64,000 bases of DNA from an uncultured Thermodesulfobacteriota bacterium (GTDB lineage Bacteria; Desulfobacterota; DSWW01), in assembly GCA_964384945.1 (NCBI GenBank), contig CAYLMK010000005.1:99549-163548 (forward strand). The letters run 5' to 3'. A program made the translations under genes and the position numbers. How positions within the stretch are numbered: the first letter of the stretch is position 1; every line of letters starts with the position of its first letter. Positions 45,801-60,697 of the stretch are shown here, piece by piece. The notes under the pieces were generated by a model that worked only from the letters and a program-made list of their open reading frames with translations, was not told where the DNA came from and made no database searches.

Positions 45801-48104
45801 TTACGGCCTTCTCCTTCGAACCGGCTTCATGGTCATCAGGAGGACCGGAAGCAGCACCAGGTCTCCGGCCAGGGCGCTCACCATGGTCACGGCCATGAGG
45901 GAGCCGAAGTAGATGATCGGCTTGAAATGCGAGAAAACGAGAACGCAGAAGCCGACCGTGAGGATCCAGGAGGTGAGGAACATGGCCCGGCCCGTGGAGA
46001 CGAGGCTTCGAAACGCGGCCGTCACCTCGTCGGTCTCGGTCTCGTACTCCCTGCGAAAGCGCGCCAGGTAGTGAATGGTGTCATCCACGGCGATCCCGAT
46101 GGCCACGCAGGAAATGACGGCCGTAGCGGTGTTGATCGGGATGCCCAGCCATCCCATGAACCCAAGGGTCGTCAGGATCGGGATCAGATTCGGGATCAGG
46201 CTCAGCAGGCCCAGCCGAACGGATCTCGAAAGGGCCATCAGAACCAGGGAGATGAGCCCCAGGGCAAGGGCCAGGCTCTGAATCTGCCCCCTGACGATGG
46301 CATCGATCGATTTGGTGACGAGCACCGAGACCCCGGTTACCTGAATCCCGAGACCCCGGTGCTCCCTTCGAATGTGCTCCTTCACCTCCCGGAGGAACCG
46401 GTCCATCCGGGCCGAACTGACGGTCTTCAGTCGGGACGCGAGGACCGTGGTCCGGTAGTCGTCACTCACATAGCGGGCCAGGTCCTCTTCCTCCCCGCTC
46501 AGGGAGTAAAGCAGCAGATACTGGGCGATCTCCTCCCTGCTCGCGGGCAGACGGTGGTCGGCCGGATCGCCTCCCCGGAAGACCTGATGCATCCATTTCA
46601 GAATGTTCACGAGCGAGAAACTGTCGGTCACGATCGATTGCCCTTCCAGGTAGGTCTGCAGGGCCTCGACACGAGCCAGGTTCTCCGGCTCCTTGACCCG
46701 GTCTTGCCCTTCGAAAGAAAAGACCACGTCCAGGGTGGACGTGCCGGTCAGGTGGGTTTCGATATGGCGGACGGCCTTCACCAGGGGGTTCGCCTCCTTG
46801 AGGTACTCGATCAGGGTGGTCTCGACATTCAGCCGAAAGATCCCGATGACGGACAGGACAACCAGCACGAGGGTTGCAACGAGGACATGGCGCCCGTGGG
46901 ATTCGTTGAACCCGCCGAGACAAGCCAGGGCCCTCTCCACGGCGGGCGTGCCCCTGCGCGCCGGCCGGAGGAAGGCCCGGGCCGGCAGCAGGGAAAGGAG
47001 GATCGGCACCAGCGTAATCGAAATGACAAAGGCCGCCAGCGCGCCGAAGGAGGCCAGCAGACCGAGGCTCCAAATGCCCTCGACGCGGCTTACCATGAGA
47101 GAACCGAACCCGATGGCCGTGGTCAGGCTGGTGAGGAAACAAGGCGTTAGGACATAGGAGGTCGCATTCCGAACGGCCTCGTCCCTGTCGGCGCTCCTTG
47201 CCCGTTCCTCCCGGTAATGCTCCAGTATGTGAATCGAGTCGGCCAAGGCGATGACCAGGATGAGCGGAGGCAGGACGTTCGTGATGATCTCCACGGTCCT
47301 GCCGCACAGAACAAGGAAGCCCAGAACCCAGACCAGGCTGGCGAGCACGGCCAGCATCGGAACCAGGACGCACCAGACCGACCGAAAGGAGACATAGAGC
47401 GTGACCACGATCAGCAGTGCGATCGCCGGCACGAAGATCCACTGGTCTTCGACCAGCATCGTGACCAGGGTCGTCGAGACAACGGGGAACCCGGCTACAT
47501 ACAGCTCATGGCCTTCGGCCTGCTCCCGGGCGACAAGGGCGAGGATGCTTCGGACGACGCGCTTCCTCTCTTCGGGGAAGCCGTCCTTGCTGAGGTTCAG
47601 CTCCGCCAGGAGCAGCGTGGAACGATCGTCGAGCGAGACGAGGTTGCCGTGGACCAGGGGGTTCGCGTGCACCCGGGCCCGGATCCTCTCGAGTTCGGAG
47701 ACGGTCTTCGGCGGATCGTAAAAGAAGGGAGCGATCTCGATTCCGTCCGGGCCGCCGCGGATGTCGTTCACACTCGAGAGGCTGAGCACCCTGCGAACGT
47801 TCTCATCCCCCTGGATTCGTTCGGTGAGACGCTCCACCGCGGCCAGGGCCTCGTAGGAGAATACGTCCTCGCAAAACAGGGCGATCAGCACGATTTCGTC
47901 CGTACCGAAGGCCTCGACATAGCGGGCGTAGGCGAGGGTGTCCGGGTCGCCCGCCACCACCATGCCCTCCGGGGAGATCCGGAAGACGATCCGCGGTATC
48001 TGGAGTGCAAAAAGCAAGGTGAGCGCGACCAGCGCAGCCAGGATCGACCAGCGCCGGTTCAGCATCGCCTCGGCGATCCGGCGGCTTGCAGGATGAACCG
48101 GCAT
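45801..48104 (-). CDS. RND-superfamily exporter, MMPL family (HpnN-like)
   Basis: 767 aa. Two 6-TM bundles, each preceded by a large periplasmic loop. SSD/MMPL motifs ('ALADSIHILEHY', 'GIAVDDTIHYLARF'). Confidence 0.85.
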   Translation of the reverse strand: MPVHPASRRIAEAMLNRRWSILAALVALTLLFALQIPRIVFRISPEGMVVAGDPDTLAYARYVEAFGTDEIVLIALFCEDVFSYEALAAVERLTERIQGDENVRRVLSLSSVNDIRGGPDGIEIAPFFYDPPKTVSELERIRARVHANPLVHGNLVSLDDRSTLLLAELNLSKDGFPEERKRVVRSILALVAREQAEGHELYVAGFPVVSTTLVTMLVEDQWIFVPAIALLIVVTLYVSFRSVWCVLVPMLAVLASLVWVLGFLVLCGRTVEIITNVLPPLILVIALADSIHILEHYREERARSADRDEAVRNATSYVLTPCFLTSLTTAIGFGSLMVSRVEGIWSLGLLASFGALAAFVISITLVPILLSLLPARAFLRPARRGTPAVERALACLGGFNESHGRHVLVATLVLVVLSVIGIFRLNVETTLIEYLKEANPLVKAVRHIETHLTGTSTLDVVFSFEGQDRVKEPENLARVEALQTYLEGQSIVTDSFSLVNILKWMHQVFRGGDPADHRLPASREEIAQYLLLYSLSGEEEDLARYVSDDYRTTVLASRLKTVSSARMDRFLREVKEHIRREHRGLGIQVTGVSVLVTKSIDAIVRGQIQSLALALGLISLVLMALSRSVRLGLLSLIPNLIPILTTLGFMGWLGIPINTATAVISCVAIGIAVDDTIHYLARFRREYETETDEVTAAFRSLVSTGRAMFLTSWILTVGFCVLVFSHFKPIIYFGSLMAVTMVSALAGDLVLLPVLLMTMKPVRRRRP

Positions 48105-49054
48105 CCGGCCCCCTTTCCTCACGGCTCCGTTCGGCCTGATCGCGGCGGTCGGGCTCTTGCGCCCGTGGGCAGTTCCCGAGTATCCGGGCCCGCACCCACC
48201 CTGTCAACCGCGCACTTGGATGCTTTCGGGGAGCGGAGCATGGGGTCGACTTCGAAGACCTCTGGGGTCAGGGCCGCCCAATTCCTTGAGAACCGCTTCG
48301 ATGGATAACCATCGCAGCGAACGTAGTGCCGCCCTCTAATCTCCCGCCGATTCGATGGGTTTCACGAGGATTTCCAGGATACAGCCGAGTAAATGATGCG
48401 GATCTTCCCGCAGCATCGCAGGATGTCCGGCCCCTCGCCGATACCCAGGTCGACGATCCGCACCAACCCCCGCTCCCAGGGTTTCAAGCAGGCATCCGCA
48501 AAACGAAAAGGATGGATGCAGCTTCTGCTGTGCATGCCGTGAAGTGTCGGAAAAGGACCCTGCCACCGTCTCTTCGCAAGTTGCAGAGTCGATGGTTCCT
48601 CTCGAGTGCATTCAGGCTTTGTGTCTGCTACACTTCTTCCCAGCCCAACGCAATGCAGAGCATCGCCTCGCCGAGCCAGCCCTGCGGGACAAAGGCTGCA
48701 TCCAGTTTGACATGGCGGCCCGGCCCTCCATCGACAACCGTATGAGCAGGGCGATCTCCGGGCGGGAACGGACGGGCCTCCTCAAGATGGGCGAGGAAGA
48801 GGCCCCGGTGCAGGGCCCGGCGAATGCGAAAAGAATCATCTACCATAACCGTATGCATGTGCAGCGCATGCTTGTTGTGAAGACCTCAAGACGCTCCAAA
48901 GGAACGATCGGCCGACCGCTGCGTCAGTGCCTATCCGGCCAAGATCGACCCGGAGAGCCGCGGGATGCGCGGGGATTGTGCGGACAGGTGCCGGATGGAT
49001 GGCATCCGGGAGAGGGCGATGAGGCCTATCAAGCGGATCAGGAAGGAGAAAGAG

Positions 49055-50053
49055 ATGACGGAGCCGGCAAATTGGAACCCGCAAACCCTCCTGGAGGTGT
49101 CCGGCAGTTACTGGCAGAGCTGCACGCTTCACGCCGCGGTCAAGCTCGATCTGTTCACCCGGATCGGCGACGAGGACCTTTCCTCCGACGAGATCGCGCG
49201 GCGCATCGGGGGAGACCGGCGCGGGGTCTCCATGCTCCTGAACGCCCTGGCAGCGATGGGACTGCTGGCAAAATCCGAGGAGAGGTACGCCGGCACGCCC
49301 GCGGCAAGGGCGTTTCTCTCGAGACACTCGGAGCAGTATCTGGGCCACATGATCATGCACCATCACCACCTGGTGGATTCCTGGGCAAAGCTGGATCAGG
49401 CCGTGCTTTCCGGAAAGCCTGTGCGGGGGAAATCTTCGGAGGCCCCCCAGGAGTTCATCGAGAGCTTTCTCATGGGGATGCACACGCTGGCCAGGTTCCT
49501 GGCACCACGCGTGGCCTCCGCCCTCGACCTTTCCGGCCGCAAGAGGCTTCTCGACGTGGGCGGAGGCCCCGGGACGTACGCCGTTCATTTCTGTCGCAAG
49601 AACCCCGGGCTCAGGGCCACGGTCTTCGATCTGCCCACGACCCGGCCTTTCGCGGAAAGGCTCGCCCGGCAGTCCGGCTTGTCGGACCGGATCGACTTCG
49701 CGGCCGGAAACTGCCTGGAAGACCCCCTGCCCGAGGGCTGCGACGTCGCCTGGCTGTCGCAGCTCCTCCACGCCGAAGGTCCGGAAGGCTGCCGGCTGAT
49801 CCTCGAGAAGACGGTCTCCTGCCTGGAGCCGGGCGGGCTGATCGTGATCCACGAATTCCTGCTGAACGACCGACTCGACGGCCCCCTGTTTCCCGCGCTC
49901 TTCTCCCTGAACATGCTGGTGGGTACGCCCGGCGGGCAGGCATACTCCGAGCGTGAGATCCGCGACATGCTCGCCCGTGCAGGCGTCCGACAGGTCCGTC
50001 GTCTGCCTTTCCGAGGCCCCAACGACTCCGGAATTCTGGCAGGGACCACTTGA
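49055..50053 (+). CDS. SAM-dependent O-methyltransferase (family 2, with N-terminal dimerisation domain)
   Basis: 'LLDVGGGPGTYAV' (motif I) and 'IVIHEFLLND'. N-terminal winged-helix dimerisation region. A strong RBS (AGGAAGGAGAAAGAG) precedes the ATG. Confidence 0.85.
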   Translation: MTEPANWNPQTLLEVSGSYWQSCTLHAAVKLDLFTRIGDEDLSSDEIARRIGGDRRGVSMLLNALAAMGLLAKSEERYAGTPAARAFLSRHSEQYLGHMIMHHHHLVDSWAKLDQAVLSGKPVRGKSSEAPQEFIESFLMGMHTLARFLAPRVASALDLSGRKRLLDVGGGPGTYAVHFCRKNPGLRATVFDLPTTRPFAERLARQSGLSDRIDFAAGNCLEDPLPEGCDVAWLSQLLHAEGPEGCRLILEKTVSCLEPGGLIVIHEFLLNDRLDGPLFPALFSLNMLVGTPGGQAYSEREIRDMLARAGVRQVRRLPFRGPNDSGILAGTT

Positions 50054-50381
50054 TTCGGGCCGCTCAACCCGACCGGGGGGAGCGTCTCCAACAGACGCAT
50101 GAGCGAACGTTCCCTCCGGCTGACGTCGCAGCTGGCCGGCCCGCTGCCCGGAAGGGCGAGGGGCCTGCCGCAGTCGCTCACTTTCGGCACCCAACCGGAG
50201 CCGGCCGGAGGCCTCGGAGCCCTGCGCACGCGTCCTCCCATGATTTTCCCAACCACGGCCATCGTCAGGGATTTCCGGACGGAGCCACGGCCTGCCGGGG
50301 CCTCATCTCCGCAGCCCATCATCCAGGCTCGACACGCAGTCACACCCGGGACGACCTCCGGCCCCGAGGTTAAAGTCCGCG

Positions 50382-51977
50382 GTGCAGATTGTCGAAATAG
50401 GGGTGGAATCGGTATGTGGAGACGGAAGCTTGCATCGCCGACACATCTTCACCGCTCTGTTCGCCGCGTTCCTCGCTTCGGTCGCCGGCTGTGGAACGAC
50501 CGAGACGGCAGAGGAACCCCCGGAACATTCTCAACCCAATATCGTCCTGATCCTCGCCGACGACATGGGCGTCGCCTCGGTGGGGGCCTACCACCCGGAA
50601 TCCGGGGTTCCGACGCCCAACATCGATCGATTGGCGGACGAGGGCATGCGTTTCCTCGACGCGCACTCTGGCTCGGCGGTCTGCTCTCCCACGCGCTACG
50701 GACTCTTGACCGGCCGCTATGCCTGGCGCACGAGCCTGAAGTCCGGGGTCCTCAACCCGTGGGAGGGGCCCCTGATCAGCGAGGAGCGCCTGACGATCGC
50801 CGATCTCCTGCGGGAGCAGGGCTATCGGACCGCTTGCTTCGGCAAGTGGCACTTGGGCTGGCGCTGGCCAGACATCCGCGGGCGGCCGACGACGAACGGG
50901 TGGGCGGTGGACTACACGAAGCCGATCCGCGGCGGCCCTCTTGCACACGGCTTCGACCACTACTTCGGCGACGACGTGCCCAATTGTCCGCCTTATGTGT
51001 GGATCGAGGACGAGCGCGCGCGCGCGATCCCGACCGACTTCATGCGGGCGGACCCGTCGAACGGCGTGTCGGCCGGGCCGATGACTCCCGGGTGGCGCCT
51101 CGATGCGGTGTTGCCCACCCTGACGGAGCGCTGCGTCGACTACATCGCACAGGCGGCCCATGCGGGACAGCCCTTCTTCCTCTATTTCCCCATGACATCG
51201 CCCCACGCCCCGATCAGTCCTTCGGAGGCGTTCCGGGGCACGAGCGGCGTGAGCAGGTACGTGGACTTCCTGATCGAGACCGACTGGGCGGTGGGGGAGG
51301 TGCTGCGCGCCCTGGAGGACAACGGAATCGCCGGCAACACGCTCGTGATCTTTACCGCCGACAACGGCACTTCGCCCGAGTGCGATTTCGAATGGCTCGC
51401 GGCCCGTGGAATCGATCTGCGCGCCCGCTGGCGAGGCTACAAGGCCGACATCTGGGAGGGAGGCCACCGCGTTCCCTTCCTCGTGCGTTGGCCGGGGGTG
51501 ATCCATCCCCGCTCGACCTCGGCCGGGAGGGTCTCGCTCGTCGACGTGATGGCCACCGTTGCCGAAATCGTGGGTTACGACCTGCCCGAGTCCGCCGCCG
51601 AGGACAGCGTGAGCCTTCTCCCCGCCCTGCTGGACGAGGAGGAGAACGCCCCGCTGCGCGAAGCGGTGATCACCCACAGCTCACTCGGCTGCTTCGCGAT
51701 CCACTCCGGCCCCTGGAAGCTCGCCTTCTGCCCGGGCTCCTGCGGCTGGTCTGAACCGGTGAACCCCGATACAGCCGGCTTCGGCCTGCCGGGCTATCAG
51801 CTCTACGACATGACCGCAGACCCCGGAGAACAACACAACCTGTGCGACGAGTATCCGGAGATCGTCTCGGAGCTCACGGACCTCTTCTGGGAGATCGTCA
51901 CCAGCGGACGCTCCACGCCGGGCGCGCAGGTGTCGAACGACGGCCCGGCCGTGTGGGCGCAGCTACCCTGGTCCTAG
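50382..51977 (+). CDS. Sulfatase (arylsulfatase family) lipoprotein
   Basis: The formylglycine motif 'CSPTRYGLLTGR' (C-x-P-x-R), 'NIVLILADDMG' and 'GKWHLG' are present. Lipobox 'LASVAGCGT'. A TTG start at ~50430 ('MHRRHIFTALFAAF...') would give a canonical signal peptide. Confidence 0.9.
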   Translation: MQIVEIGVESVCGDGSLHRRHIFTALFAAFLASVAGCGTTETAEEPPEHSQPNIVLILADDMGVASVGAYHPESGVPTPNIDRLADEGMRFLDAHSGSAVCSPTRYGLLTGRYAWRTSLKSGVLNPWEGPLISEERLTIADLLREQGYRTACFGKWHLGWRWPDIRGRPTTNGWAVDYTKPIRGGPLAHGFDHYFGDDVPNCPPYVWIEDERARAIPTDFMRADPSNGVSAGPMTPGWRLDAVLPTLTERCVDYIAQAAHAGQPFFLYFPMTSPHAPISPSEAFRGTSGVSRYVDFLIETDWAVGEVLRALEDNGIAGNTLVIFTADNGTSPECDFEWLAARGIDLRARWRGYKADIWEGGHRVPFLVRWPGVIHPRSTSAGRVSLVDVMATVAEIVGYDLPESAAEDSVSLLPALLDEEENAPLREAVITHSSLGCFAIHSGPWKLAFCPGSCGWSEPVNPDTAGFGLPGYQLYDMTADPGEQHNLCDEYPEIVSELTDLFWEIVTSGRSTPGAQVSNDGPAVWAQLPWS

Positions 51978-52043
51978 GGGGCCGGGCGGGTCGACCTCGA
52001 CCGCGCACTTAAAGAGTGGCGCTCCATGTGCTAGTATGTTTGC

Positions 52044-52739
52044 ATGGGTGCCTTCATCAAACACATCTATTGGATCGACCCGGTCGAACATCGGGACGCA
52101 CTCGCCGAACTTTCCAACGAGAGCAAATTCGTCTACAGGGCCAGGCACACGCCCTGCCAGGCCCTGTACCCCCGCCGGGAGGTCGTCCTGGTCGAGCCCG
52201 GCGTCTGGGATCTCCAATGCAGTCGTCAGGGGTCCTGGTACCGATCGTCGCGCCGGAACGGCCGGTGGCTCCTCGTTACGAACCGGCCCCTGGACGCCTT
52301 CGTTCCCTGGGGCTGCGTCACGCTGGAGGACTTCCGGCCGCCCCGGATCGCCACGGACGAAGACGTGATCGAGCTGCTGAGCCACGCCCGTGCCCCCGCG
52401 GTTCTCCCCTTGGGCTGGGGAATCTTCTCTCCGTGGGAGGTCCAGGCCATCCGGGCCTATCTGGCGGCCGAGAAGATCGAGCGTTCCCTCCAGGAGGTTT
52501 TCGCATACTATACGGCCAACCACCTGAACTTCGTTTTTCCCCGGCTCTTTCTCCGGGAGGGAGACGGCCCGGTTATCCCCTACTCGATCCACAGGACGGC
52601 CCTCGTCTGCTCGGCCTGTGTCGAGATCTTCGGCATCCTTGGAGAGGATTACCCGGTGAAGTATCTCGCGCCCTGTCCGGGCCTGAAGTACGTGAAGACA
52701 ACCACTTCCCAGTACCTTTGCATCCGATGCGGTTCATGA
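52044..52739 (+). CDS. Hypothetical protein with C-terminal Cys4 zinc-ribbon-like motif
   Basis: 231 aa of balanced composition. The C-terminus has 'CSACVEI...CPGLKYV...CIRCGS'. No family recognised. It overlaps the plsC start by 13 nt. Confidence 0.4.
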   Translation: MGAFIKHIYWIDPVEHRDALAELSNESKFVYRARHTPCQALYPRREVVLVEPGVWDLQCSRQGSWYRSSRRNGRWLLVTNRPLDAFVPWGCVTLEDFRPPRIATDEDVIELLSHARAPAVLPLGWGIFSPWEVQAIRAYLAAEKIERSLQEVFAYYTANHLNFVFPRLFLREGDGPVIPYSIHRTALVCSACVEIFGILGEDYPVKYLAPCPGLKYVKTTTSQYLCIRCGS

Positions 52740-53413
52740 ATTCGGGCAGGAAGGAGGCCGTTCGAGGCGCCGGGAGATCTTCGGGGATCCGGGTGGACGA
52801 GGACCGCCTCAGCCTCCTCCTGTGGAAGGCGAACCGGCTCTACTGCAAGACGAGGCACCGGTTCGTGTGGGAGGGTCCCGACCCCATCCCTATGTCGGGC
52901 CCGGCGATCCTGGTGAGCAATCACCGCAGCAGCGTCGATCCCTTCATTCTCGCCGCAACCACCCGCCGGGTGATTTCGTACCTCGTCGCTCAGGAATACT
53001 GCCGGATTCCGGGCATCCGCTGGTTTTTCGACTGGATGCGGTGCGTCCCGGTCCGGAGGGACCGGAAAGATGTCGGGGCGGTCCGGAGATCGCTGGCCGA
53101 ACTCGGCGGCGGCAGGCTGCTTTGCATCTTCCCGGAGGGAGGGATCCGCCGGGGATTCGAGCATCCTCATCTGGGAATGGGCTACCTGTCCCTGAAATCC
53201 GGGGCGCCCGTGATCCCGGCCTTTGTTTACGGGACCCCGTCCTCCGCCTCCGTATGGAAGGCCCTGTTCATGTCCTCCCGGGCCCGCGTGTCCTTCGGCG
53301 CCGTCTGCCGGCCCCCTTCGAATCGATCCCGGAGGATCGATCGGGATCTTGTCATCGAGTGGACCCGCGAGCTGACCCGGGCGGTCACGGACCTGATCCC
53401 TCGAGGGCCTTGA
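52727..53413 (+). CDS. plsC: 1-acyl-sn-glycerol-3-phosphate acyltransferase (PlsC family)
   Basis: H(X)4D motif 'VSNHRSSVDPF' and 'FPEGG' motif III. Confidence 0.85.
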   Translation: MRFMNSGRKEAVRGAGRSSGIRVDEDRLSLLLWKANRLYCKTRHRFVWEGPDPIPMSGPAILVSNHRSSVDPFILAATTRRVISYLVAQEYCRIPGIRWFFDWMRCVPVRRDRKDVGAVRRSLAELGGGRLLCIFPEGGIRRGFEHPHLGMGYLSLKSGAPVIPAFVYGTPSSASVWKALFMSSRARVSFGAVCRPPSNRSRRIDRDLVIEWTRELTRAVTDLIPRGP

Positions 53414-53517
53414 GCCCGGATCCGGCGGCGGCCGGAACGGCCGTCCGATTTCGTTTGACGGTCCTGTTGTACTCGTATAGGTTTGTTTTCGTCCACGAGG
53501 GAAATGCAGGAGTACCC

Positions 53518-55410
53518 ATGAAGAAAGAGTACGCCGCCCTGCTGCGGGCCAAGATGAGCGAGGAAGGCCTTCGCAAGCTCACGACCCTCGAAAACGAAAA
53601 GCTCTTCGATTTCGTCGGGGAATACGTCGAGCTTTGCGAGCCGGACAGTGTTTACATGTGCGACGACAGCGACGAAGACGCGGAATACGTCCGCCGGATG
53701 GCCCTGAAGGAGGGCGAGGAAAAGAGGCTGGCCAAAGAGGGGCAGACGGTTCACTACGACGGCTATGAGGACCAGGGGCGGGACAAGGCCAATACCAAGT
53801 TCATGGTATCCGCGGAAAACCTCGCCAGGATGGGCAACCTGAACTGCGTGGAGTACGAGGAGGGCCTGGCCGAGATCCGGCGGATCGCCCGGGGGATCAT
53901 GAAGGGCAAGACGGCGATTGTGAAGCTTTTCTGTGAGTGCCCGACCCGGAGCCCGTTTTCGATCGGCTGCGCGCAGATCACCGACTCTTTTTACGTATCG
54001 CACTCCGAGGATATCCTCTACCGGCGGGGCTACGAACATTTCCTGCACATGAAAGACAAGAACGATTTCTTCCGTTTCCTGCACAGCGCGGGCAAACTCG
54101 ACGAGCGCGGCTGCACCGTGAACCTGCGCGAGCGCCGCATCTACCAGGACATCGAGAACATGACCGTCTACTCCCTCAACGACCAGTACGCGGGCAACTC
54201 GGTGGGGTTGAAGAAGCTCGCCATGCGGCTCGCCATCAAGAAGGCCTCCGGAGAGGGCTGGCTGTGCGAGCATATGTTCATCATGGGGTGCCAGAACCGG
54301 GAGAAGGGGCGAACCACGTATTTCTGCGGCGCCTATCCCTCCGCCTGCGGCAAGACGGCCACCGCCATGCTTCCGGGGGAAACCCTGGTCGGAGACGACA
54401 TCGCCTATTTCCTGAAGCTCGACGGCGAGTTCCGCGCCGCAAACGTGGAGAGAGGAATCTTCGGAATCATTCAGGACGTCAATCCCAAAGACGACCCGGT
54501 CATCTTCGACACCCTGATGCAACCGAAGGAAATGATCTTCTCGAACGTCCTGACCGGCGCGGACAACAACCCGTACTGGCAGGGCATGGGCGTCGAGACG
54601 CCCAGGGAGGGAACCAACCACTCGGGACCCGGCTGGTTTCAGGGCAAGAAGGACGCCAAGGGCAAGGAGATTCCCCTTTCTCACCCCAACGCCCGCTACA
54701 CCATCCGGATGGAGTACCTCGCCAACCTGGACCCGGCCTGGAACGACAAGAAGGGCGTGCTCGTGGGGGGCGTGATTTACGGGGGCAGGGACAGCGACAC
54801 CTCCGTGCCCGTCGAGGAATCCCTCGACTGGCAGGACGGGATCATCATGAAGGCCTGCACGCTCGAGTCGGAGACCACGGCGGCCACCCTCGGAAAGGAG
54901 GGGGTCCGGGCCCCCCAGCCGATGGCCAATCTTGATTTCATCAGTTACCCGCTCGGAGAGTACATCCGGAACAACATCCTTTTCGTCAAGGGCTTGAAGA
55001 AGGTGCCTCCCATCTTCTGCGTGAACTACTTCCTAAAGGACGAAAAGGGCGCGTTCTGCAACCACAAGCTCGCCAAGAAGGTCTGGGTTCACTGGGCGGA
55101 ACAGAGGGCGCACCGTGAAGTGGAAGCCCTCCGGACGCCCACCGGGCTCATCCCGACCTATCGAGACCTCAAGAGTCTGTTTCGGAGAATCTTCGACGAG
55201 GAGTACACGGAAGAGGACTACCGTTACCAGTTCACGTTCCGGTGCGACGCCTGGCTGGCCAAACTGGAGCGTTCGAGGGCGTACTACCGCGAGAACGTGC
55301 CCGATTGTCCCCAAATCCTTTACGAGACCTGGGCAAGGGCCACGGAGAGGATTCGGGCCGCCAGGGCGAAGTTCGGGGCGTTCATCGCGCCGGGGGAGTA
55401 CCGGGAGTAA
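53518..55410 (+). CDS. pckG: Phosphoenolpyruvate carboxykinase (GTP)
   Basis: 630 aa. Kinase-1a P-loop 'YPSACGKTA', 'FSIGCAQITDS', and the GTP-PEPCK C-terminal nucleotide-binding domain. Confidence 0.95.
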   Translation: MKKEYAALLRAKMSEEGLRKLTTLENEKLFDFVGEYVELCEPDSVYMCDDSDEDAEYVRRMALKEGEEKRLAKEGQTVHYDGYEDQGRDKANTKFMVSAENLARMGNLNCVEYEEGLAEIRRIARGIMKGKTAIVKLFCECPTRSPFSIGCAQITDSFYVSHSEDILYRRGYEHFLHMKDKNDFFRFLHSAGKLDERGCTVNLRERRIYQDIENMTVYSLNDQYAGNSVGLKKLAMRLAIKKASGEGWLCEHMFIMGCQNREKGRTTYFCGAYPSACGKTATAMLPGETLVGDDIAYFLKLDGEFRAANVERGIFGIIQDVNPKDDPVIFDTLMQPKEMIFSNVLTGADNNPYWQGMGVETPREGTNHSGPGWFQGKKDAKGKEIPLSHPNARYTIRMEYLANLDPAWNDKKGVLVGGVIYGGRDSDTSVPVEESLDWQDGIIMKACTLESETTAATLGKEGVRAPQPMANLDFISYPLGEYIRNNILFVKGLKKVPPIFCVNYFLKDEKGAFCNHKLAKKVWVHWAEQRAHREVEALRTPTGLIPTYRDLKSLFRRIFDEEYTEEDYRYQFTFRCDAWLAKLERSRAYYRENVPDCPQILYETWARATERIRAARAKFGAFIAPGEYRE

Positions 55411-55473
55411 CTGTGCGCGGGTGAAATCAGCCTGTTGAGAAGGAGGACTTGGAAGGCCGCCTGGTGGCACGCG

Positions 55474-58400
55474 TCAGGATGCGTGGTGCGGGTTCCGGTC
55501 GGCCGGCGGAGCTGAACCGGCCTTTGACACGCCGGCGGCCGAGAGCGTAAACGTGAAGGTGCTTCCCCGGCCCTTTCGGCTCTCGACCGTGAGGCTACCG
55601 CCGTAGTGGGTGATGACTTCTTTGCAGATGGGAAGGCCGAGCCCCGTGCCCTTGGGCTTTTCCCCGAGAGAGTCGTGGGAGCCCTGCCGGAACTTGTCGA
55701 AGATGATTTCCTGGTCCTTCTCGTCGATTCCGATGCCGTTGTCCGAGACGCTCACCCGGATCCACCGGCCCGGATCGCCCTCCCGCCTGCCCGCAAAGCT
55801 CGCGGCGCGCACCCGGATCTCGCCGCCCTTCCAGGAAAATTTCACGGCGTTGCTCAGCAGGTTCGTCAGGACCTGCTGAATCCGGTCCCGGTCCGCGAAA
55901 ACGGGCGGCAGATCCGCCTCGATCTCCAGGACCAGTCCGAGGGATTTCTCCTCCAGAAGCCCGCCCGAGGCCCTGGCCGCGTCGCGGATCACCTCCTCCA
56001 GGCTGAACACGCTGTCCTGCCAGACCATACCGCCCGCCTCGATCCGGCTGAGATCCAGGAGATCATTGATGAGCCGCGTGAGCCTTTCCGCCTCGGAGTT
56101 GATGATGCCGAGAAACTCCCGGCCGTTTTCCGGATCGAGGTCGCCGTACCGCAGCAGGATCTCGGAGAAAGACCGGATCGAGGTAAGAGGGGTCCTCAAT
56201 TCGTGCGAGACGGATGAAAGGAAGGCGTCTTTCATCTTGTCGAGTTCCTTGAGCCGCTCGTACGCCTCCTCCAGGTCCCGGGTCCGCTGCCTCACCCGTT
56301 CTTCGAGTTCCTCGTTGAGCTTTCGGACTTCTTCCTCGGCCTGTCGCTGTTTTTCGATTCCCCTGCGGAGATCCTCGTTGACCGCGCGAAGTTCCCGGGT
56401 GCGCACCTCGACCAGGGCCTCGAGGTGTTCCTTGTGTTTCCTCAGTTCGATCTCGGCCCTCTTGCCCCACATCGCCTCCTGAACCGCCACGCAGAGGCTT
56501 TCGGCGATTTCCCGGTCTTCGGCGGTGTAACGGGACGCCTTGTTGGCCAGCCCGAGCATGCCCCCCACGCGCCCCCTCTCCTTCATGGGCACGCCCAGGA
56601 ACGCCCGGAGTTCGGGATGGCCCGCCGGAAGGCCCACCCGGGCGGGGTGTCGGGCCGGGTCGTTGGCGATGACGGCCTCTCCGGTCCGCCAGACCTCCCC
56701 CCAGATCCCTCGGGGCTTGCGATCCTCAAGGAGATTCACAGCCGTGGGTTTGGGCATCCGGCACGCCTCCCACCCCGGGTCGCTCATGGCAACGACGGTG
56801 AGTTTCCCTTCCGTGTCCATTTGCCCGAGGAACCCGAACTCGCTTTGGGTGAGCTCCAGTGCCACATCGAGGCACTTGCGGGCCACTTCCTCCTCCGTGT
56901 CGCAGGAGAGGGTTTCCCGAAAGACCTTGTTGATTCCCTCGAGAAGCGCGCTTTGCAGGAAGGCGCGATCTTCGGCTTTCCTGCGCTCCGTTACATCGCT
57001 GATGAAGCACAGGGTTGCCGGCCTTCCCTCCCACAGAATGGAGGTCGCCCTCATCTCGAACCATCGGACACCCCCGGCCTTGTGCAGGACCCGGAACGCA
57101 TAGACCTGGGCCTCCGAAGTGCCGTGAAGGCTCTCCAGATATTTTCGAGCAACGGTGTCGCGGTCGTCCGGATGGACCAGATCCAGGAAGTTGACCCCGC
57201 TGAGCTCGGCCCGGGTGTAGCCGGCCATCTCGGCGGCCCGGCGGTTGCCGAACCGGAACAGGCCGTCCTGGACGACGAAGATACCCTCGTTGGCGTTCTT
57301 GACGAGGGCGTGGTACCGCTCCTCCGAAACCTTCAGATCCTCTTCCGCCTTCTTGCGCGCCGTAATGTCGATCCCGAGAACCAGGACCGCCTCGGAGCCG
57401 TCCGCGTCCCGAAACGGATACGCGTACATCTGGAACGTGCGCCCTTTGGGCCTGTGAGAAAACTCCCAATGCCGAACCCGCCGGTCCTGTCCCCTATCGA
57501 TGGCATGGCAGACCTTGCAGGGACTCGGGCGTCCTGTCGCGATTTCGTAGCAGCGCTTTCCCCCGGGATCTCCGAACGTCTCGCGAAAGTACCGGTTGGC
57601 GAAGCGGATGGAGAAATCAGCCCCCCGGACGTACACGAACCCGGGCAGTTCTTCGAGAACCGTAAGAAACCGGGCCCGCTCGGCTTCCAGAACTTCCTGG
57701 GTTTGCTTTTGCTCCGTGATGTCGGTCAGGCAACAGAGGCTCGCGGGCCTTCCCTCCCAGGAGAGGAAGGCGGAATTCATCTGGAGCCATCGCTCCCTTC
57801 CATCCTTGTGGAGAATGCGGAACTGATAGCTCGCCTGCTCCCTGTTGCCCTCCATCCTTTCCCGATGCATGCGAAGGACCTTCTCCAGATCCTCGGGATG
57901 GATCAAGAAAGCAAACTTCCGTTCCGGCACCTCGTCCAGACGCCGGTAGCCGGTCAACCGGGAGGCCTTCGAGTTGGCGAAGCGCAACAACCCGTCCTGA
58001 ACCACGATGATTGCCTCGTTGGCGTTCTCGACCAGGACGCGGTACCGTTCCTCCGAACGCTGGAGCTGCTCCTCGGCGCGCTTACGGTCGGAGATATCTA
58101 TACCCAGAGCCAGGACAAATCCGGTGCCGTCCGCGTCGACGAACGGATACCCGTACATCTGGAAGGTCATGCCCCTGGAGGCGTGGGAATACTCCCAGGT
58201 TCGCACCGAGCTTCCCTCGAACACCTCGAGCAGTTTGCAGTTTTCGCACGGTACGGCAAGGCCTTTCAGCGCCTCGTGACAGCGCTTCCCCGCCGGGTCT
58301 CCGAAGACTTCCCGGAAACGGCGGTTGGTGTATACCATTCTGAGATCCCTGTCCCGCAGGGAAACTACGGCTGGGAGATCCTCGAGCACCGAGTAGAAGC

Positions 58401-58758
58401 GGTAACGCCCGGCTTCGATCTTTTCCTCTGGCTGCTTGCAATCGGCTGGGATGGAGTCGATCACGGCTCGGAGAGGGGAAACCTCTTCCAGCGGTGGAAG
58501 GTCGATCTGCTGCGGACCCTTCTCTGCGAGAGACCTCACGCAAGAACTCGTCTGCCTTTGCTCAGGCTCGCCCGGCATGGCGTCGTTCCTTTTGCCGCGG
58601 GGAAATCTCCCGAACCACCCTTTCGCGGTCCAGGGGCATTTCGGCCGCGAGAACCCGCCTCTTTCCTCCTCACGGTCTGCATCGGTACCACGGGAGGGAA
58701 ACTTGAGAACCCCGTCATCGCCTCTCAAGGGCCGGAAGGGAAGGTTGTGCAACCACAA
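55474..58758 (-). CDS. Cytoplasmic multi-sensor histidine kinase: (PAS-PAS)x2 - GAF - coiled coil - HisKA - HATPase
   Basis: No transmembrane segments. H-box 'SHELRTPLTSIRSF', N-box 'LTNLLSNAVKFS', G-boxes 'DNGIGI' and 'GTGLGLPICK'. The PAS-PAS module is tandemly duplicated. The probable true start is the internal ATG at ~58578 ('MPGEPEQRQ'). Confidence 0.9.
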   Translation of the reverse strand: MWLHNLPFRPLRGDDGVLKFPSRGTDADREEERGGFSRPKCPWTAKGWFGRFPRGKRNDAMPGEPEQRQTSSCVRSLAEKGPQQIDLPPLEEVSPLRAVIDSIPADCKQPEEKIEAGRYRFYSVLEDLPAVVSLRDRDLRMVYTNRRFREVFGDPAGKRCHEALKGLAVPCENCKLLEVFEGSSVRTWEYSHASRGMTFQMYGYPFVDADGTGFVLALGIDISDRKRAEEQLQRSEERYRVLVENANEAIIVVQDGLLRFANSKASRLTGYRRLDEVPERKFAFLIHPEDLEKVLRMHRERMEGNREQASYQFRILHKDGRERWLQMNSAFLSWEGRPASLCCLTDITEQKQTQEVLEAERARFLTVLEELPGFVYVRGADFSIRFANRYFRETFGDPGGKRCYEIATGRPSPCKVCHAIDRGQDRRVRHWEFSHRPKGRTFQMYAYPFRDADGSEAVLVLGIDITARKKAEEDLKVSEERYHALVKNANEGIFVVQDGLFRFGNRRAAEMAGYTRAELSGVNFLDLVHPDDRDTVARKYLESLHGTSEAQVYAFRVLHKAGGVRWFEMRATSILWEGRPATLCFISDVTERRKAEDRAFLQSALLEGINKVFRETLSCDTEEEVARKCLDVALELTQSEFGFLGQMDTEGKLTVVAMSDPGWEACRMPKPTAVNLLEDRKPRGIWGEVWRTGEAVIANDPARHPARVGLPAGHPELRAFLGVPMKERGRVGGMLGLANKASRYTAEDREIAESLCVAVQEAMWGKRAEIELRKHKEHLEALVEVRTRELRAVNEDLRRGIEKQRQAEEEVRKLNEELEERVRQRTRDLEEAYERLKELDKMKDAFLSSVSHELRTPLTSIRSFSEILLRYGDLDPENGREFLGIINSEAERLTRLINDLLDLSRIEAGGMVWQDSVFSLEEVIRDAARASGGLLEEKSLGLVLEIEADLPPVFADRDRIQQVLTNLLSNAVKFSWKGGEIRVRAASFAGRREGDPGRWIRVSVSDNGIGIDEKDQEIIFDKFRQGSHDSLGEKPKGTGLGLPICKEVITHYGGSLTVESRKGRGSTFTFTLSAAGVSKAGSAPPADRNPHHAS
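56875..58332 (-). repeat. Internal tandem duplication (~729 bp x2) encoding paired PAS modules of the histidine kinase
   Basis: Protein repeats run 'FREVFGDPAGKRCHEALKGLAVPCENC...EERYRVLVENANEAIIVVQD' and 'FRETFGDPGGKRCYEIATGRPSPCKVCHAI...EERYHALVKNANEGIFVVQD'. The same is visible in the antisense ORFs at 57245 and 58007 (period ~726 nt). Confidence 0.7.
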
Positions 58759-58855
58759 GCTCGCCGAGAAGGCCCGGCTTGACGGGATGGAGAGGATTCA
58801 GGCCGCCAGGGCGAAGTTCGGGGCGCTCATCGCGCCGGGGGAGTACCCGCAGTAG
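58745..58855 (+). pseudogene. Truncated duplicate of the pckG 3' end (gene remnant)
   Basis: Encodes '...LCNHKLAEKARLDGMERIQAARAKFGALIAPGEYPQ*'. Compare pckG 'FCNHKLAKK...' (~55055-55080) and the pckG C-terminus 'ERIRAARAKFGAFIAPGEYRE*' (55345-55410). It is in the same orientation as pckG, on the far side of the histidine kinase gene. Confidence 0.6.
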
Positions 58856-58916
58856 CAAGGTTGCCCGAGTCGCGCAGGGTCGGGGGGCCGTGCCGCTTCC
58901 CGGCCTCCGTCACGGG

Positions 58917-59090
58917 CTACTGGCCTCGAATGGCCTGCTCGGGACAGATATCCGCGCAGTATCCGCACTCCGTACAGATCGCAGGGTCGATGACGTAGCC
59001 TTCCCCATCCCTGACGATCGCCCGCAAGGGGCATTCCTCGAAGCACTTTCCGCACAAGTTGCACTTGTCCGTATAAATCACGTACGCCAT
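58917..59090 (-). CDS. 2x[4Fe-4S] ferredoxin (small)
   Basis: 57 aa, 'MAYVIYTDKCNLCGKCFEECPLRAIVRDGEGYVIDPAICTECGYCADICPEQAI', with two CxxCxxCxxxCP clusters. It starts 1 nt after the upstream HDAC-like gene's stop. Confidence 0.8.
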   Translation of the reverse strand: MAYVIYTDKCNLCGKCFEECPLRAIVRDGEGYVIDPAICTECGYCADICPEQAIRGQ

Positions 59091-59091
59091 T

Positions 59092-59844
59092 TCATGCAAA
59101 CCCTTCCAGAAATGCGAGAACGTGCCTGCCCAGCACGTGATGGTTGTATCCCCCCTCGAGCAAGGCGTACCGGCGCCCTTGGCACGATCGAAGGGCGTAG
59201 TCCTTGGCGATCTCTCCCAGACGCCGGAAGTCACGTTCGTCCAGGAGATCTCCCCAGTCCTTCCTTCCCCGGTCGAATCCGGCGGAGACGGCCAGGATGT
59301 CCCGGTCTCCCGCCCGCCGCAGGTCCGAATCGGCCCGCTCCAGGAATGCGTCCGCGCTGCGGCCATCGGGATGAAGGTAGGCGACAGCCGGGTCCCCGAA
59401 GAAAATGTTTTCCGTCCCGTCGCCGAAGTGAAGGTCGAAGTCGAGTATGGCGGCGCTGTCGACCGAGCCCGAAGCGCGCAGGGCCTGCAACGAGACGGCC
59501 AGGTTGTTGAAAAAGCAGAAGCCCCAGCAGTCGGCACGGCTCGCGTGGTGGCCCGGGGGGCGGATCAGCCCGAAGCAAGGCTCGCCCGCACACGCCTGCC
59601 GGGCTGCGAGCAGGGCCCCGCCCGCGGCCAGCGCGGCGATCTCGAACAGTCGACGGTCCCGCCGTATGGACTCCACATGGAGCCCCGCGTGCGCGAGCAG
59701 CAGGGCGGCCTCATCCGCCGGTTCCGGTTCCACAAAGGGAAAACGCCCCTCGAGGCAGTCGCGGATCGCCTCGATCCGGCCCGGCACCGAAGCAGGGTCA
59801 CCGGCATAGACCTCGCAGTACCGCGGACTGTATACGATCTTCAC
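59092..59844 (-). CDS. Histone deacetylase/acetoin-utilisation (arginase-deacetylase fold) family protein, short form
   Basis: 'RPPGHHA' and 'LDFDLHFGDGTE' are the HDAC-family metal/active-site motifs. At 250 aa it is shorter than AcuC/HDAH. Confidence 0.7.
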   Translation of the reverse strand: MKIVYSPRYCEVYAGDPASVPGRIEAIRDCLEGRFPFVEPEPADEAALLLAHAGLHVESIRRDRRLFEIAALAAGGALLAARQACAGEPCFGLIRPPGHHASRADCWGFCFFNNLAVSLQALRASGSVDSAAILDFDLHFGDGTENIFFGDPAVAYLHPDGRSADAFLERADSDLRRAGDRDILAVSAGFDRGRKDWGDLLDERDFRRLGEIAKDYALRSCQGRRYALLEGGYNHHVLGRHVLAFLEGFA

Positions 59845-59953: not shown

Positions 59954-60697
59954 ATGCGGTACGCGGTCCTCTCGGACATCCATTCGAACCTCGAGGCCCT
60001 GGAGGCGGTGCTCAGGGAGGTCGACCGCATCGGGGTGGACCGGATCGTATGCCTCGGGGACCTGGTCGGCTACAACGCGAGCCCGAACGAATGCGTCCGG
60101 ATCGTCCGAGAACGAGGGATTCTCTCCTTGATGGGAAACCATGATGCGGCAGCCTGCGGGCTGGAGGAACCGGTGTACTTCAACCCCATCGCCCGGGCCG
60201 CGGTCCTGTGGACAAGACAGGCCTTGGAACCGGACGAAAAGGGCGCGCTGGAAGCCCTGCCGGAGCAGGCCGACCTGAACGGAGGTCTCCGGCTGGCGCA
60301 CGGGTCCCTGGTCCACCGGGACCACTACCTGACGTCCTACGAAGACATTCTGGAGAACGTGCGGCGAATGCGGCAGGCCCGGCCCGAGATCCGAATCCTC
60401 TTCTTCGGGCACACCCACTTCCAGATCGCCTATGCGGACAACGGGGAATCCGTGTCCGTGATTCCGCATTCCGTCTCCCGGCTCTCCCTCCGGGAGGACA
60501 GCCTCTATCTCGTCAACCCGGGAAGCGTGGGGCAGCCGAGGGATCATGATTCCCGGTGCGCCTTCCTCCTCCTCGATGAGGAGGAAAGGACGGTCGAGTT
60601 CATACGCCTTTCGTATGACATCCGAACCTGCGCCGAAAGGATTCTTGCCGCCGGCCTGCCGAGGGAACTGGCGGATCGACTTCACGTGGGATGCTAG
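59954..60697 (+). CDS. Metallophosphoesterase (calcineurin-like; YfcE/ApaH-like phosphodiesterase)
   Basis: 'AVLSDIHSNLEAL', 'CLGDLVGYN', 'GNHD', 'GHTH' and 'NPGSVGQP' are the canonical MPP metal-binding motifs. Confidence 0.85.
   Translation: MRYAVLSDIHSNLEALEAVLREVDRIGVDRIVCLGDLVGYNASPNECVRIVRERGILSLMGNHDAAACGLEEPVYFNPIARAAVLWTRQALEPDEKGALEALPEQADLNGGLRLAHGSLVHRDHYLTSYEDILENVRRMRQARPEIRILFFGHTHFQIAYADNGESVSVIPHSVSRLSLREDSLYLVNPGSVGQPRDHDSRCAFLLLDEEERTVEFIRLSYDIRTCAERILAAGLPRELADRLHVGC

What the first reader, a model, noticed from the sequence alone, without database searches (positions are those of the whole stretch)
55055..58855. Sensor kinase gene bracketed by pckG and a truncated second copy of the pckG 3' end
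The last ~65 nt of pckG (…ERIRAARAKFGAFIAPGEYRE*) plus a short internal piece (FCNHKLAKK) recur at 58745-58855 as '…LCNHKLAEKARLDGMERIQAARAKFGALIAPGEYPQ*'. The copy is in the same orientation and is about 85% identical at the DNA level over the last 65 nt. The two copies flank the 3.3-kb histidine-kinase gene, which is on the opposite strand. This looks like the scar of an insertion or duplication-deletion event that placed the HK immediately 3' of pckG. The remnant is internally deleted relative to pckG (~260 nt missing).
Basis: seen in the sequence. Interest (0 to 1): 0.6.

Follow-up and report, generated by a model that had tools for sequence, protein, structure and literature searches.

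The report
Relocated kinase gene with pckG scar
A sensor kinase gene moved from its usual chromosomal neighbourhood into the tail of the PEP carboxykinase gene (pckG), leaving a decaying second copy of that tail; this is a well-documented but ordinary rearrangement scar, not a new kind of genetic system.

Summary
An internal piece (55033-55100) recurs at 58724-58791, with a 24/25 core. Both are in the same orientation and neither occurs anywhere else in the window.

The second copy is a 132-nt pseudogene fragment with an in-frame 246-nt deletion. It sits at the native position of the pckG 3' end. Four relatives have pckG directly followed by ferredoxin, HDAC-like and phosphoesterase genes with no kinase. 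The flank after the remnant is homologous to the flank after pckG in the closest relative.

Every other ortholog of the kinase that I found (65-84% identity, 12 contigs) lies in a different, conserved context: short-chain dehydrogenase | kinase | Na/alanine symporter. So a 3.3-kb segment was relocated in this lineage. It carries the kinase gene, about 147 nt of its conserved upstream region and 63 nt of 3' flank. It is bracketed by a 378-nt duplication of the pckG tail, and the upstream copy keeps pckG intact.

The segment has no integrase, transposase, inverted ends or compositional anomaly. The exact mechanism is unresolved: template switching, duplication followed by deletion, or homology-anchored recombination. 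Interest is low to moderate.

The parts
53518..55410 (+). Intact GTP-dependent PEP carboxykinase gene pckG (630 aa).
   Evidence: Pfam PEPCK_N 4.6e-56 and PEPCK_GTP 8.4e-105. It is full length and collinear with orthologs at 82-92% identity, and its C-terminus ends like theirs (...GEYRE*).
55033..55410 (+). The 378-nt tail of pckG that was duplicated (upstream, functional copy of the direct repeat).
   Evidence: Homology to the remnant starts at 55033 and ends at the stop codon.
55101..55346 (+). The 246-nt (82-codon) stretch of pckG that is missing from the remnant. In pckG it is bounded by the 4-nt direct repeat CGGA (55097-55100 and 55343-55346).
   Evidence: The offsets of the two repeat pieces are 3691 and 3445, a difference of 246 nt. 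The CGGA repeat is read directly from the sequence.
55411..55473 (.). 63-nt spacer between the convergent stop codons of pckG and the kinase gene. Probably the kinase's own 3' flank, carried along with it.
   Evidence: It has no homology to the native pckG flank. There is a weak resemblance (AGTCCT.CCTT.T..AC.GG) to the sequence after the kinase stop in L082; this is suggestive only.
55474..58578 (-). PAS-PAS-GAF-HisKA-HATPase_c sensor histidine kinase gene (1034 aa), relocated here.
   Evidence: Pfam domains. It is 84.8% nt-identical over 2906 ungapped nt to L081, whose copy lies at the canonical locus. The native C-terminus is retained (...HHAS* vs ...HPAS* in L083/L088).
58579..58725 (-). 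Native upstream region of the kinase gene, moved together with it. It includes a conserved non-coding motif at about 58652-58715.
   Evidence: Window 58448-58725 aligns to L081 7852-8131 (74%), where the kinase gene starts at 8001. The motif is conserved in 7 lineages (alignment A3).
58724..58791 (+). Remnant piece 1, a copy of pckG 55033-55100. It has a 24/25 core (58748-58772) and heavily mutated flanks.
   Evidence: Using L170 as outgroup, 14-16 changes in these 68 nt are specific to the remnant.
58787..58855 (+). Remnant piece 2, a copy of the last 22 codons of pckG plus the stop codon (TAG).
   Evidence: 62/66 identical. It keeps the ancestral states ATG, CAG, CTC and TAG that it shares with L170.
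58856..58916 (.). Native pckG/ferredoxin intergenic spacer.
   Evidence: By my count about 22 of 27 positions within its first ~30 nt match the sequence that follows the pckG stop in L170 (sequences printed; local alignment runs past the stop). It is 61 nt long, versus about 48 nt in L002.
58917..59090 (-). 2x[4Fe-4S] ferredoxin gene (57 aa), the ancestral convergent neighbour of pckG.
   Evidence: Pfam Fer4. It lies adjacent to pckG in L002, L003, L173 and L174.
59092..59844 (-). Histone-deacetylase-family gene, part of the conserved ancestral neighbourhood.
   Evidence: Pfam Hist_deacetyl 5.6e-35; synteny.

Best explanation
This is the scar of a lineage-specific gene relocation.

What happened. 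A 3.3-kb chromosomal segment (55411-58725) came to lie at the convergent pckG/ferredoxin junction. It holds one sensor histidine kinase gene, about 147 nt of its own conserved upstream region and a short 3' flank. The event duplicated the last 378 nt of pckG as a direct repeat on both sides of the segment.

What each copy does now. The upstream copy completes an intact pckG. The downstream copy was redundant and has no start, so it is decaying. It lost 246 nt in frame between two CGGA microhomologies and has collected point mutations. It is now a 132-nt pseudogene fragment beside the ferredoxin gene.

What is shown and what is inferred:
- Shown: the repeat, its native position, the absence of the kinase at this site in relatives, the other conserved home of the kinase, and the exact abutment of the two homologies.
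- Inferred: the mechanism. I favour a duplication-generating, transposase-independent rearrangement within the genome. One version is a replication template switch that leaves pckG at its stop codon, copies the kinase locus and returns 378 nt further back (MMBIR/FoSTeS-like, about 0.35). The other is a large tandem duplication whose junction joined the kinase upstream region to pckG position 55033, followed by deletion of the redundant interval (about 0.25). Either route requires later loss of the original kinase copy.
- Most likely, the remnant itself has no function, and the 36-aa gene call on it is spurious.
For: The repeat is real and unique:
- The two pieces match at 62/66 and 24/25 and occur only at these two places in the window, with 0 expected by chance.

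The remnant is at the native position:
- L002, L003, L173 and L174 show pckG-ferredoxin-HDAC-phosphoesterase(-mfd-SurA-SurA-UvrA) with no kinase.
- The first ~30 nt after the remnant's stop are homologous to the flank after pckG in L170. The flank after the functional pckG is not.
- The remnant keeps ancestral states shared with relatives: CTT, ATG, CAG, CTC and the TAG stop.

The kinase came from elsewhere:
- The eight orthologous protein clusters at 65-84% identity found in 5.8 billion proteins lie on 12 other contigs. All are in the context T2SSF-T2SSE-DUF3373-CoA ligase-adh_short | kinase | Na_Ala_symp.
- None of those neighbours is in the window.

The junction is exact:
- Homology to that locus ends at 58725, and the pckG remnant begins at 58724.

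It is not a mobile element:
- The segment holds a single ORF with kinase domains only.
- The best inverted repeat near its ends is 24 nt at 71% complementarity, which is chance level.
- GC content is 0.60-0.655, against 0.59-0.68 in the flanks.

It is not an assembly artefact:
- The same kinase protein lies on two contigs with the same neighbourhood, and the copies are diverged rather than identical.
Against: - The ancestral kinase locus of this genome was not found. Moved versus copied-then-lost is therefore unresolved, and the donor could have been another cell.
- Both ends of the insert coincide with functional boundaries: the pckG stop codon on one side, and about 10 nt beyond the conserved kinase upstream motif on the other. 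A single random event does not predict this. It needs selection or later trimming.
- Decay of the remnant is strongly uneven: 14-16 remnant-specific changes in 68 nt versus 2-3 in 70 nt (Fisher P=3e-4). The upstream piece exceeds the roughly 10% neutral branch length to L170.
- The functional copy, not the remnant, carries 4 derived states in the last 23 codons. A simple in-place duplication followed by neutral decay does not predict that.
Confidence: 0.85

Rival explanations
1. Homology-anchored acquisition from another cell. Incoming DNA that already had the kinase directly downstream of pckG recombined homologously in or upstream of pckG. At its other end it joined illegitimately to resident pckG position 55033. 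This would be homology-facilitated illegitimate recombination, or Campbell-type integration of a circle carrying a pckG tail. The functional pckG tail would then be donor DNA and the remnant would be the displaced resident tail.
For: It gives exactly the observed architecture. It explains why homology stops at the stop codon, because donor and recipient would differ downstream of it. It also explains why the functional copy carries 4 derived states while the remnant keeps the ancestral ones shared with L170. Comparable displaced 3'-end repeats are described for Vibrio cholerae T6SS effector/immunity arrays (PMC5361080, found). The HFIR mechanism is described in PMC3240628.
Against: No genome with a pckG-kinase adjacency other than this one was found among 80 genome loci and the top protein hits. 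Identity of the window pckG to L170 is flat (91-97%) along the gene with no mosaic break, and four-fold-site divergence is the same in the last 378 nt (0.217) as overall (0.201). The model only pushes back the question of how the adjacency first arose.
Confidence: 0.2
2. The repeats are attachment sites of a site-specific integrative element or transposon that carries the kinase as cargo and targets the 3' end of pckG.
For: Direct repeats flank a discrete segment inserted at a gene's 3' end while the gene stays intact, as with islands integrated into 3' ends of genes (established knowledge). In relatives the same junction carries toxin-antitoxin cargo.
Against: No integrase or transposase is present: the segment is one kinase ORF. 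There are no terminal inverted repeats. A 378-nt duplication is far longer than transposon target duplications. Kinase orthologs sit at one conserved chromosomal locus in 12 other contigs, not in varying contexts. Composition is native. Relatives with other cargo at the junction show no repeat of the pckG tail.
Confidence: 0.03
3. The remnant, or its well-preserved last 66 nt, is kept by selection. It could act as a 3'-end or terminator signal for the ferredoxin/HDAC operon, as an insulator or regulatory site in front of the kinase, or as a 36-aa peptide gene.
For: The terminal 66 nt are much better preserved than the neighbouring 68 nt. The reading frame and a stop codon are retained. JGI calls a 36-aa gene here. 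The remnant lies in the 338-nt gap between ferredoxin and kinase on the strand opposite to both.
Against: No terminator-like or promoter-like site was found in 58579-58916 and there is no Rfam match. The pckG tail is among the least conserved parts of the gene between relatives: 81% versus 91-97% nt identity to L170, with 10 L170-specific changes in 70 nt. That argues against an embedded conserved element. Retention of frame has a 1-in-3 prior. No second genome is available to test for constraint.
Confidence: 0.07
4. Assembly chimera or chance similarity.
For: The source is a metagenome contig (JGI 3300043177).
Against: A chimera joins identical repeats. Here the copies differ at 4 of 66 positions, and one has a 246-nt deletion and many substitutions. 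The locus is present on two contigs. Chance expectation is 0 in 100 shuffles.
Confidence: 0.02

Closest known systems
Replicative template-switch rearrangements (FoSTeS / microhomology-mediated break-induced replication; PMC2621351, PMC4215184)
   Same: An ectopic chromosomal segment is inserted and flanked by a duplication of the sequence at the departure and return points. No recombinase gene is involved. Breakpoints are non-recurrent, and a cluster of mutations next to a junction is possible.
   Different: These models are documented mainly in E. coli experiments, yeast and human copy-number variants. Here nothing shows the event was replicative. Microhomology at the two outer junctions cannot be read, because the ancestral kinase locus of this genome is unknown.
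Tandem duplication followed by deletion as a route to gene-order change (established knowledge of bacterial genome evolution)
   Same: It predicts a novel junction (kinase upstream region joined to the interior of pckG), a truncated second copy of the gene at the duplication boundary, and later loss of redundant DNA, including internal deletions at microhomologies such as CGGA.
   Different: It needs at least three events: duplication, collapse of the interval, and loss of the original kinase copy. No intermediate was found.
Displacement by homologous or homology-facilitated illegitimate recombination anchored in a conserved upstream gene (HFIR, PMC3240628; Vibrio cholerae T6SS effector/immunity arrays, PMC5361080)
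   Same: A new gene arrives behind a conserved gene, and a leftover copy of that gene's 3' end marks the displaced old junction.
   Different: That process depends on a donor that already has the adjacency, and none was found. The cargo here is a core chromosomal sensor kinase from a conserved locus, not a variable effector module.
Genomic islands integrated into the 3' ends of genes, with att direct repeats
   Same: Direct repeats of a gene's 3' end bracket the inserted DNA, and the target gene stays intact.
   Different: There is no integrase and no foreign composition. The cargo is a single gene, the repeat is 378 nt, and the cargo has a fixed home in relatives.

Membership tests
Pseudogene fragment left by a segmental duplication or insertion | Significant nucleotide homology to a parent gene in the same genome, in the same orientation. 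| tested here: met
   62/66 and 24/25 identical; only two copies in the window; 0 expected by chance.
Pseudogene fragment left by a segmental duplication or insertion | The fragment cannot encode the parent protein (truncated or deleted). | tested here: met
   It is 132 nt, corresponding to 44 of 630 codons, with a 246-nt internal deletion. It carries W->R and W->G changes in the invariant VWLHWAE motif.
Pseudogene fragment left by a segmental duplication or insertion | Synteny with relatives shows which copy lies at the ancestral position. | tested here: met
   In L002, L003, L173 and L174 pckG directly abuts the ferredoxin gene. The remnant's flank is homologous to the pckG flank of L170.
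Relocated (translocated) chromosomal gene | Orthologs occupy a different, conserved locus in relatives. | tested here: met
   12 other contigs (L081-L086, L088, L089, L175-L177 and the one collapsed as 'similar place not shown') show adh_short | kinase | Na_Ala_symp.
Relocated (translocated) chromosomal gene | The ancestral locus in the same genome is empty (moved rather than copied). | tested here: inconclusive
   The locus was not recovered for this genome. Indirectly, no second kinase at 84-100% identity appears in the protein search.
Site-specific integrative element / genomic island | An integrase or recombinase gene within the element. | tested here: not met
   The segment 55411-58725 contains one gene with PAS/GAF/HisKA/HATPase_c domains only.
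Site-specific integrative element / genomic island | The same element is found in varying genomic contexts or has foreign composition. | tested here: not met
   The kinase has one conserved context in relatives. Its GC content equals that of its flanks.
Transposon / insertion sequence | A transposase, terminal inverted repeats, and a short (2-15 bp) target duplication. | tested here: not met
   There is no transposase. The best inverted repeat near the ends is 24 nt at 71% complementarity (I16). The duplication is 378 nt.
Second (paralogous) PEPCK gene | An intact PEPCK ORF around the second copy. | tested here: not met
   Homology to pckG is limited to 58724-58855. Pfam finds nothing in the ORF 58436-58855.
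Template-switch (MMBIR/FoSTeS) rearrangement | Microhomology at both breakpoints, and an ectopic template still present at the time of the event. | not testable with these tools
   This needs the ancestral kinase locus of this genome or of a very close relative. The nearest available locus is only 74% identical in the junction region.

The most novel reading that the evidence does not exclude
The pckG/ferredoxin junction may be a recurrent, recombinase-free landing site at which the conserved pckG tail serves as the homology anchor for cargo exchange. The cargo is a kinase here, and toxin-antitoxin modules in L001 and L170. Under this reading the well-preserved last 66 nt of the remnant would be kept because they still work as that anchor, or as a 3'-end or insulator signal between the ferredoxin operon and the kinase.
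Probability: 0.08. Interest if true: 0.45.

Novelty: new member of a known kind. Interest (0 to 1): 0.25.

Why it matters
The locus is a clean natural example of how a core regulatory gene changes chromosomal address without a mobile element. Both the origin and the destination are identifiable, the junction is resolved to about 1 nt, and a flanking duplication spared the target gene.

It is useful for three things:
- It corrects the annotation. The 36-aa gene call is a pckG pseudogene fragment, the long TTG-initiated kinase ORF is wrong, and JGI calls PEPCK at 666 aa where I place the start to give 630 aa, the length of its orthologs.
- It is a marker of this lineage.
- It is a small data point on rearrangement mechanisms in uncultured Thermodesulfobacteriota-like bacteria.

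It does not reveal a new system or function. Nothing indicates a functional link between the kinase and pckG.

Tried and rejected
- **Exact-protein look-up of PEPCK** found nothing, because JGI called a 666-aa version.
- **Search for the ancestral kinase locus of this genome** failed. A metagenome scan with a DUF3373 alignment returned 80 loci, none from sample Ga0484859. A protein search with DUF3373, cluster listing and look-ups of P0241 and P0366 all gave other samples. So moved versus copied is unresolved.
- **A repeat of the pckG tail in relatives.** I tested the 67 fetched loci in which PEPCK matched to at least residue 620 on the + strand. Only a 16-nt chance hit in L005 turned up. The duplication is therefore specific to the window lineage. 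L170's contig ends 2.5 kb after pckG, so its far junction is unseen.
- **Mosaic structure of pckG relative to L170** (a sign of a donor-derived tail): none seen.
- **Known RNA families** in 55300-59200: none.
- **Promoter or terminator consensus** in the kinase-ferredoxin gap: none.
- **Alternative alignment of remnant 58763-58788** to the region just upstream of the pckG tail, suggested by a blastn hit to L001. I rejected it in favour of the in-register alignment to 55082-55100, which scores 12/19 and shares the ancestral CTT codon with L170.
- **Mobile-element, chimera and second-PEPCK readings** were rejected, as set out under rival explanations and the membership test.
Full report
**1. Observation**

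Genes in the region:

| Coordinates | Strand | Gene |
|---|---|---|
| 53518-55410 | + | pckG, 630 aa (Pfam PEPCK_N + PEPCK_GTP) |
| 55474-58578 | - | Sensor histidine kinase, 1034 aa (PAS, PAS, GAF, HisKA, HATPase_c) |
| 58917-59090 | - | Ferredoxin, 57 aa, 2x[4Fe-4S] |
| 59092-59844 | - | Histone-deacetylase-family gene |
| 59954-60697 | + | Metallophosphoesterase |

The kinase starts at the ATG at 58578. The longer TTG-initiated ORF that reaches 58758 only reflects longest-ORF listing.

The repeat finder gives two matches:
- 55344-55409 vs 58789-58854: 66 nt, 94% identity.
- 55033-55100 vs 58724-58791: 68 nt, 75% identity.

Each core occurs exactly twice in the window, with none expected in 100 shuffles. 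A sensitive blastn of the whole kinase-ferredoxin gap finds no further pckG-like piece.

**2. Anatomy of the second copy**

In pckG coordinates the remnant is 55033-55100 joined to 55347-55410. The missing 246 nt equal 82 codons, so the frame is kept. In the parent gene the deletion is bounded by a 4-nt direct repeat, CGGA, at 55097-55100 and 55343-55346. That is typical of a slippage deletion.

Homology stops to the nucleotide at the stop codon: TAA in pckG and TAG in the remnant. Upstream, it stops at 58724.

The remnant translates as ...LKGRKGRLCNHKLAEKARLDGMERIQAARAKFGALIAPGEYPQ*. It carries W->R and W->G changes in the VWLHWAE motif, which is otherwise invariant in all orthologs. It is a pseudogene fragment, not part of a second PEPCK gene. 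JGI annotated it as a 36-aa gene.

**3. Which copy is at the native place?**

A genome scan with PEPCK returned 80 loci. In L002 and L003 (82% aa identity) the order is: 231-aa gene, pckG(+), ferredoxin(-), HDAC(-), phosphoesterase(+). There is no kinase, and only about 48 nt separate the two stop codons in L002, the locus measured.

L173 and L174 (83%) show the same order, continuing with mfd, SurA, SurA and UvrA, exactly as on the far side of the window locus.

In the closest relative found (P0121, 92% aa; L170-L172), the roughly 30 nt after the pckG stop align with the ~30 nt after the remnant's stop (about 22 of 27 positions by my count). They do not align with the sequence after the functional pckG.

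So the remnant, its flank and the ferredoxin gene form the old junction. Everything from 55411 to about 58724 is inserted.

**4. Where the kinase came from**

A search of about 5.8 billion proteins found the window's own protein at 100% identity on two contigs with the same neighbourhood, which argues against a chimera. The next best hits are only 81-84% (P0002-P0006) and 65-66% (P0007, P0008) identical.

Every contig that carries one of these orthologs has the same other context (loci L081-L086, L088, L089, L175-L177):

T2SSF - T2SSE - DUF3373 - CoA ligase - short-chain dehydrogenase(-) | kinase(+) | Na/alanine symporter(-)

None of those neighbour genes is in the window.

At the DNA level:
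- Window 58439-55534 matches L081 8443-11348 at 84.8% without gaps.
- Window 58725-58448 matches L081 7852-8131 at 74%. The kinase start in L081 is at 8001.

The insert therefore carries about 147 nt of the kinase's own upstream region. That region includes a motif conserved in all seven lineages aligned. Homology to the canonical locus ends at 58725, one base from where the pckG remnant begins.

The kinase's native C-terminus and stop codon are retained. The 63-nt spacer down to pckG resembles the L082 downstream sequence only weakly.

**5. What it is not**

- The insert contains no integrase or transposase.
- It has no terminal inverted repeats above chance (I16).
- Its base composition shows no shift: GC 0.60-0.655 versus 0.59-0.68 around it.
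- There is no Rfam match.
- No consensus promoter or terminator lies in the kinase-ferredoxin gap.
- A 378-nt flanking duplication is far longer than a transposition target duplication.

**6. Mechanism**

Shown: an ectopic single-gene segment from a conserved chromosomal locus now lies inside a 378-nt direct duplication of the pckG tail, and the upstream copy keeps pckG intact. How this happened is inferred. Three routes give exactly this architecture:

- **(a) Replication template switch.** Replication leaves pckG at its end, copies the kinase locus and returns 378 nt further back (MMBIR/FoSTeS type; PMC2621351, PMC4215184).
- **(b) Large tandem duplication.** Its novel junction joins the kinase upstream region to pckG 55033. 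The redundant interval is then deleted.
- **(c) Homology-anchored recombination.** Incoming DNA that already had pckG next to the kinase recombines with the resident gene (HFIR or Campbell type; PMC3240628; compare PMC5361080).

Routes (a) and (b) need later loss of the original kinase copy. Indirect support for that loss is that no second kinase between 84% and 100% identity appears in the database.

Route (c) needs a donor with the adjacency. None was seen among the loci examined, and pckG shows no mosaic break relative to L170.

I put about 0.6 on an intragenomic duplicative event (a or b) and 0.2 on (c). The rest goes to variants.

**7. An unexplained detail**

With L170 as outgroup:

| Piece of the remnant | Remnant-specific changes | Functional-copy-specific changes |
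|---|---|---|
| Upstream, 68 nt | 14 (plus 2 ambiguous) | 1 |
| Terminal, 70 nt | 2-3 | 4 (ACG, CGG, TTC, TAA) |

The difference in remnant-specific changes is significant (Fisher P=3e-4). Within the upstream piece, the changes cluster in the two stretches next to the outer junction and next to the internal deletion. The 25-nt core between them has one change.

Four-fold-site divergence between the window and L170 pckG is 0.20, or about 0.10 per branch. The upstream piece has therefore changed more than neutral decay since that split allows.

Possible causes are error-prone synthesis next to the junctions, a later gene-conversion patch over the terminal piece, a donor/recipient difference under route (c), or selection on the opposite strand in front of the kinase. 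None could be tested.

**8. Context**

The same convergent junction carries other accessory cargo in relatives:
- L001 has a PIN/Phd toxin-antitoxin pair and lacks the HDAC gene.
- L170-L172 have Gp49/HTH, HicA/HicB and DUF2283 genes.

Neither shows a repeat of the pckG tail. However, the L170 contig ends before its far junction. The site is evidently permissive for insertions, which is usual for the gap between convergent genes.

**9. Verdict**

The feature is a rearrangement scar of a familiar kind and no new system is involved. It is a new instance of a known kind of event, and interest is low to moderate (0.25).

Noticed in passing
window 58652-58715 (- strand); L081 7862-7925 and equivalents: A non-coding motif lies about 75-140 nt upstream of the kinase start. 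Its consensus is GTTCTCAAGTTT, about 14 variable nt, then ACCGATGCATACCGTGAGGGGAAA. It has invariant blocks in seven lineages whose kinases are only 65-84% identical (alignment A3). There is no Rfam match. It is probably the kinase's promoter or operator, or a 5'-leader element.
   Followed up: partly
window 58724-58855: The remnant decays unevenly. The stretches next to the two junctions match pckG at only 15/24 and 12/19, whereas the core matches at 24/25 and the terminal piece at 62/66. In the last 23 codons the functional pckG, not the remnant, carries four derived states. This is unexplained.
   Followed up: partly
L001 11947-12656; L170 12453-14067: In relatives, the pckG/ferredoxin junction holds toxin-antitoxin genes instead of the kinase: PIN + Phd/YefM in L001 (which also lacks the HDAC gene), and Gp49/HTH, HicA/HicB and DUF2283 in L170-L172.
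   Followed up: partly
window about 48100-52040: A block of about 4 kb contains an O-methyltransferase gene (48965-50053), a sulfatase gene (50382-51977) and two small ORFs. It lies between the MMPL transporter gene (45801-48122) and the conserved 231-aa gene (52044-52739). In L170 and L173 those two genes are direct neighbours, and homology to L170 breaks at about 52020. This is a second lineage-specific insertion close to the first.
   Followed up: no
L082 about 11440-11560; L083 and L088 downstream of the kinase gene: A palindromic unit, GGAGGGACGCGCTCCGTCGCGTCCGTC, is repeated two or more times in the kinase/symporter spacer of relatives, in the manner of a REP element. It is absent from the window even with 3 mismatches allowed.
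   Followed up: partly
window 58440-58447 vs L081 8132-8442: The kinases of the L081/L082 group (1116-1135 aa) have about 100 extra residues near the N-terminus that the window kinase (1034 aa) and the L083 group (1009 aa) lack.
   Followed up: no
window 57217-57468 and 57946-58197: The kinase gene contains an internal 252-nt direct repeat at 72% identity, corresponding to its two PAS modules (D1).
   Followed up: no
L087 9685-9795 and 13130-15130 (= window 58745-58855 and 53410-55410): The JGI annotation calls the pckG remnant a 36-aa gene. It also calls PEPCK as 666 aa, where I place the start to give 630 aa, the length of its orthologs. This is why the exact-protein look-up failed.
   Followed up: yes
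L004 2966-3544: Another Thermodesulfobacteriota MAG (PEPCK 77% identical) has a small PAS-domain gene just downstream of pckG on the same strand. It is 44% identical to one PAS module of the window kinase and is not its ortholog.
   Followed up: no
L175 4457-7556: In one relative (JGI 3300059600), the kinase ortholog at the canonical locus is split into two overlapping ORFs of 691 and 369 aa. This is either a frameshift or a sequencing error.
   Followed up: no
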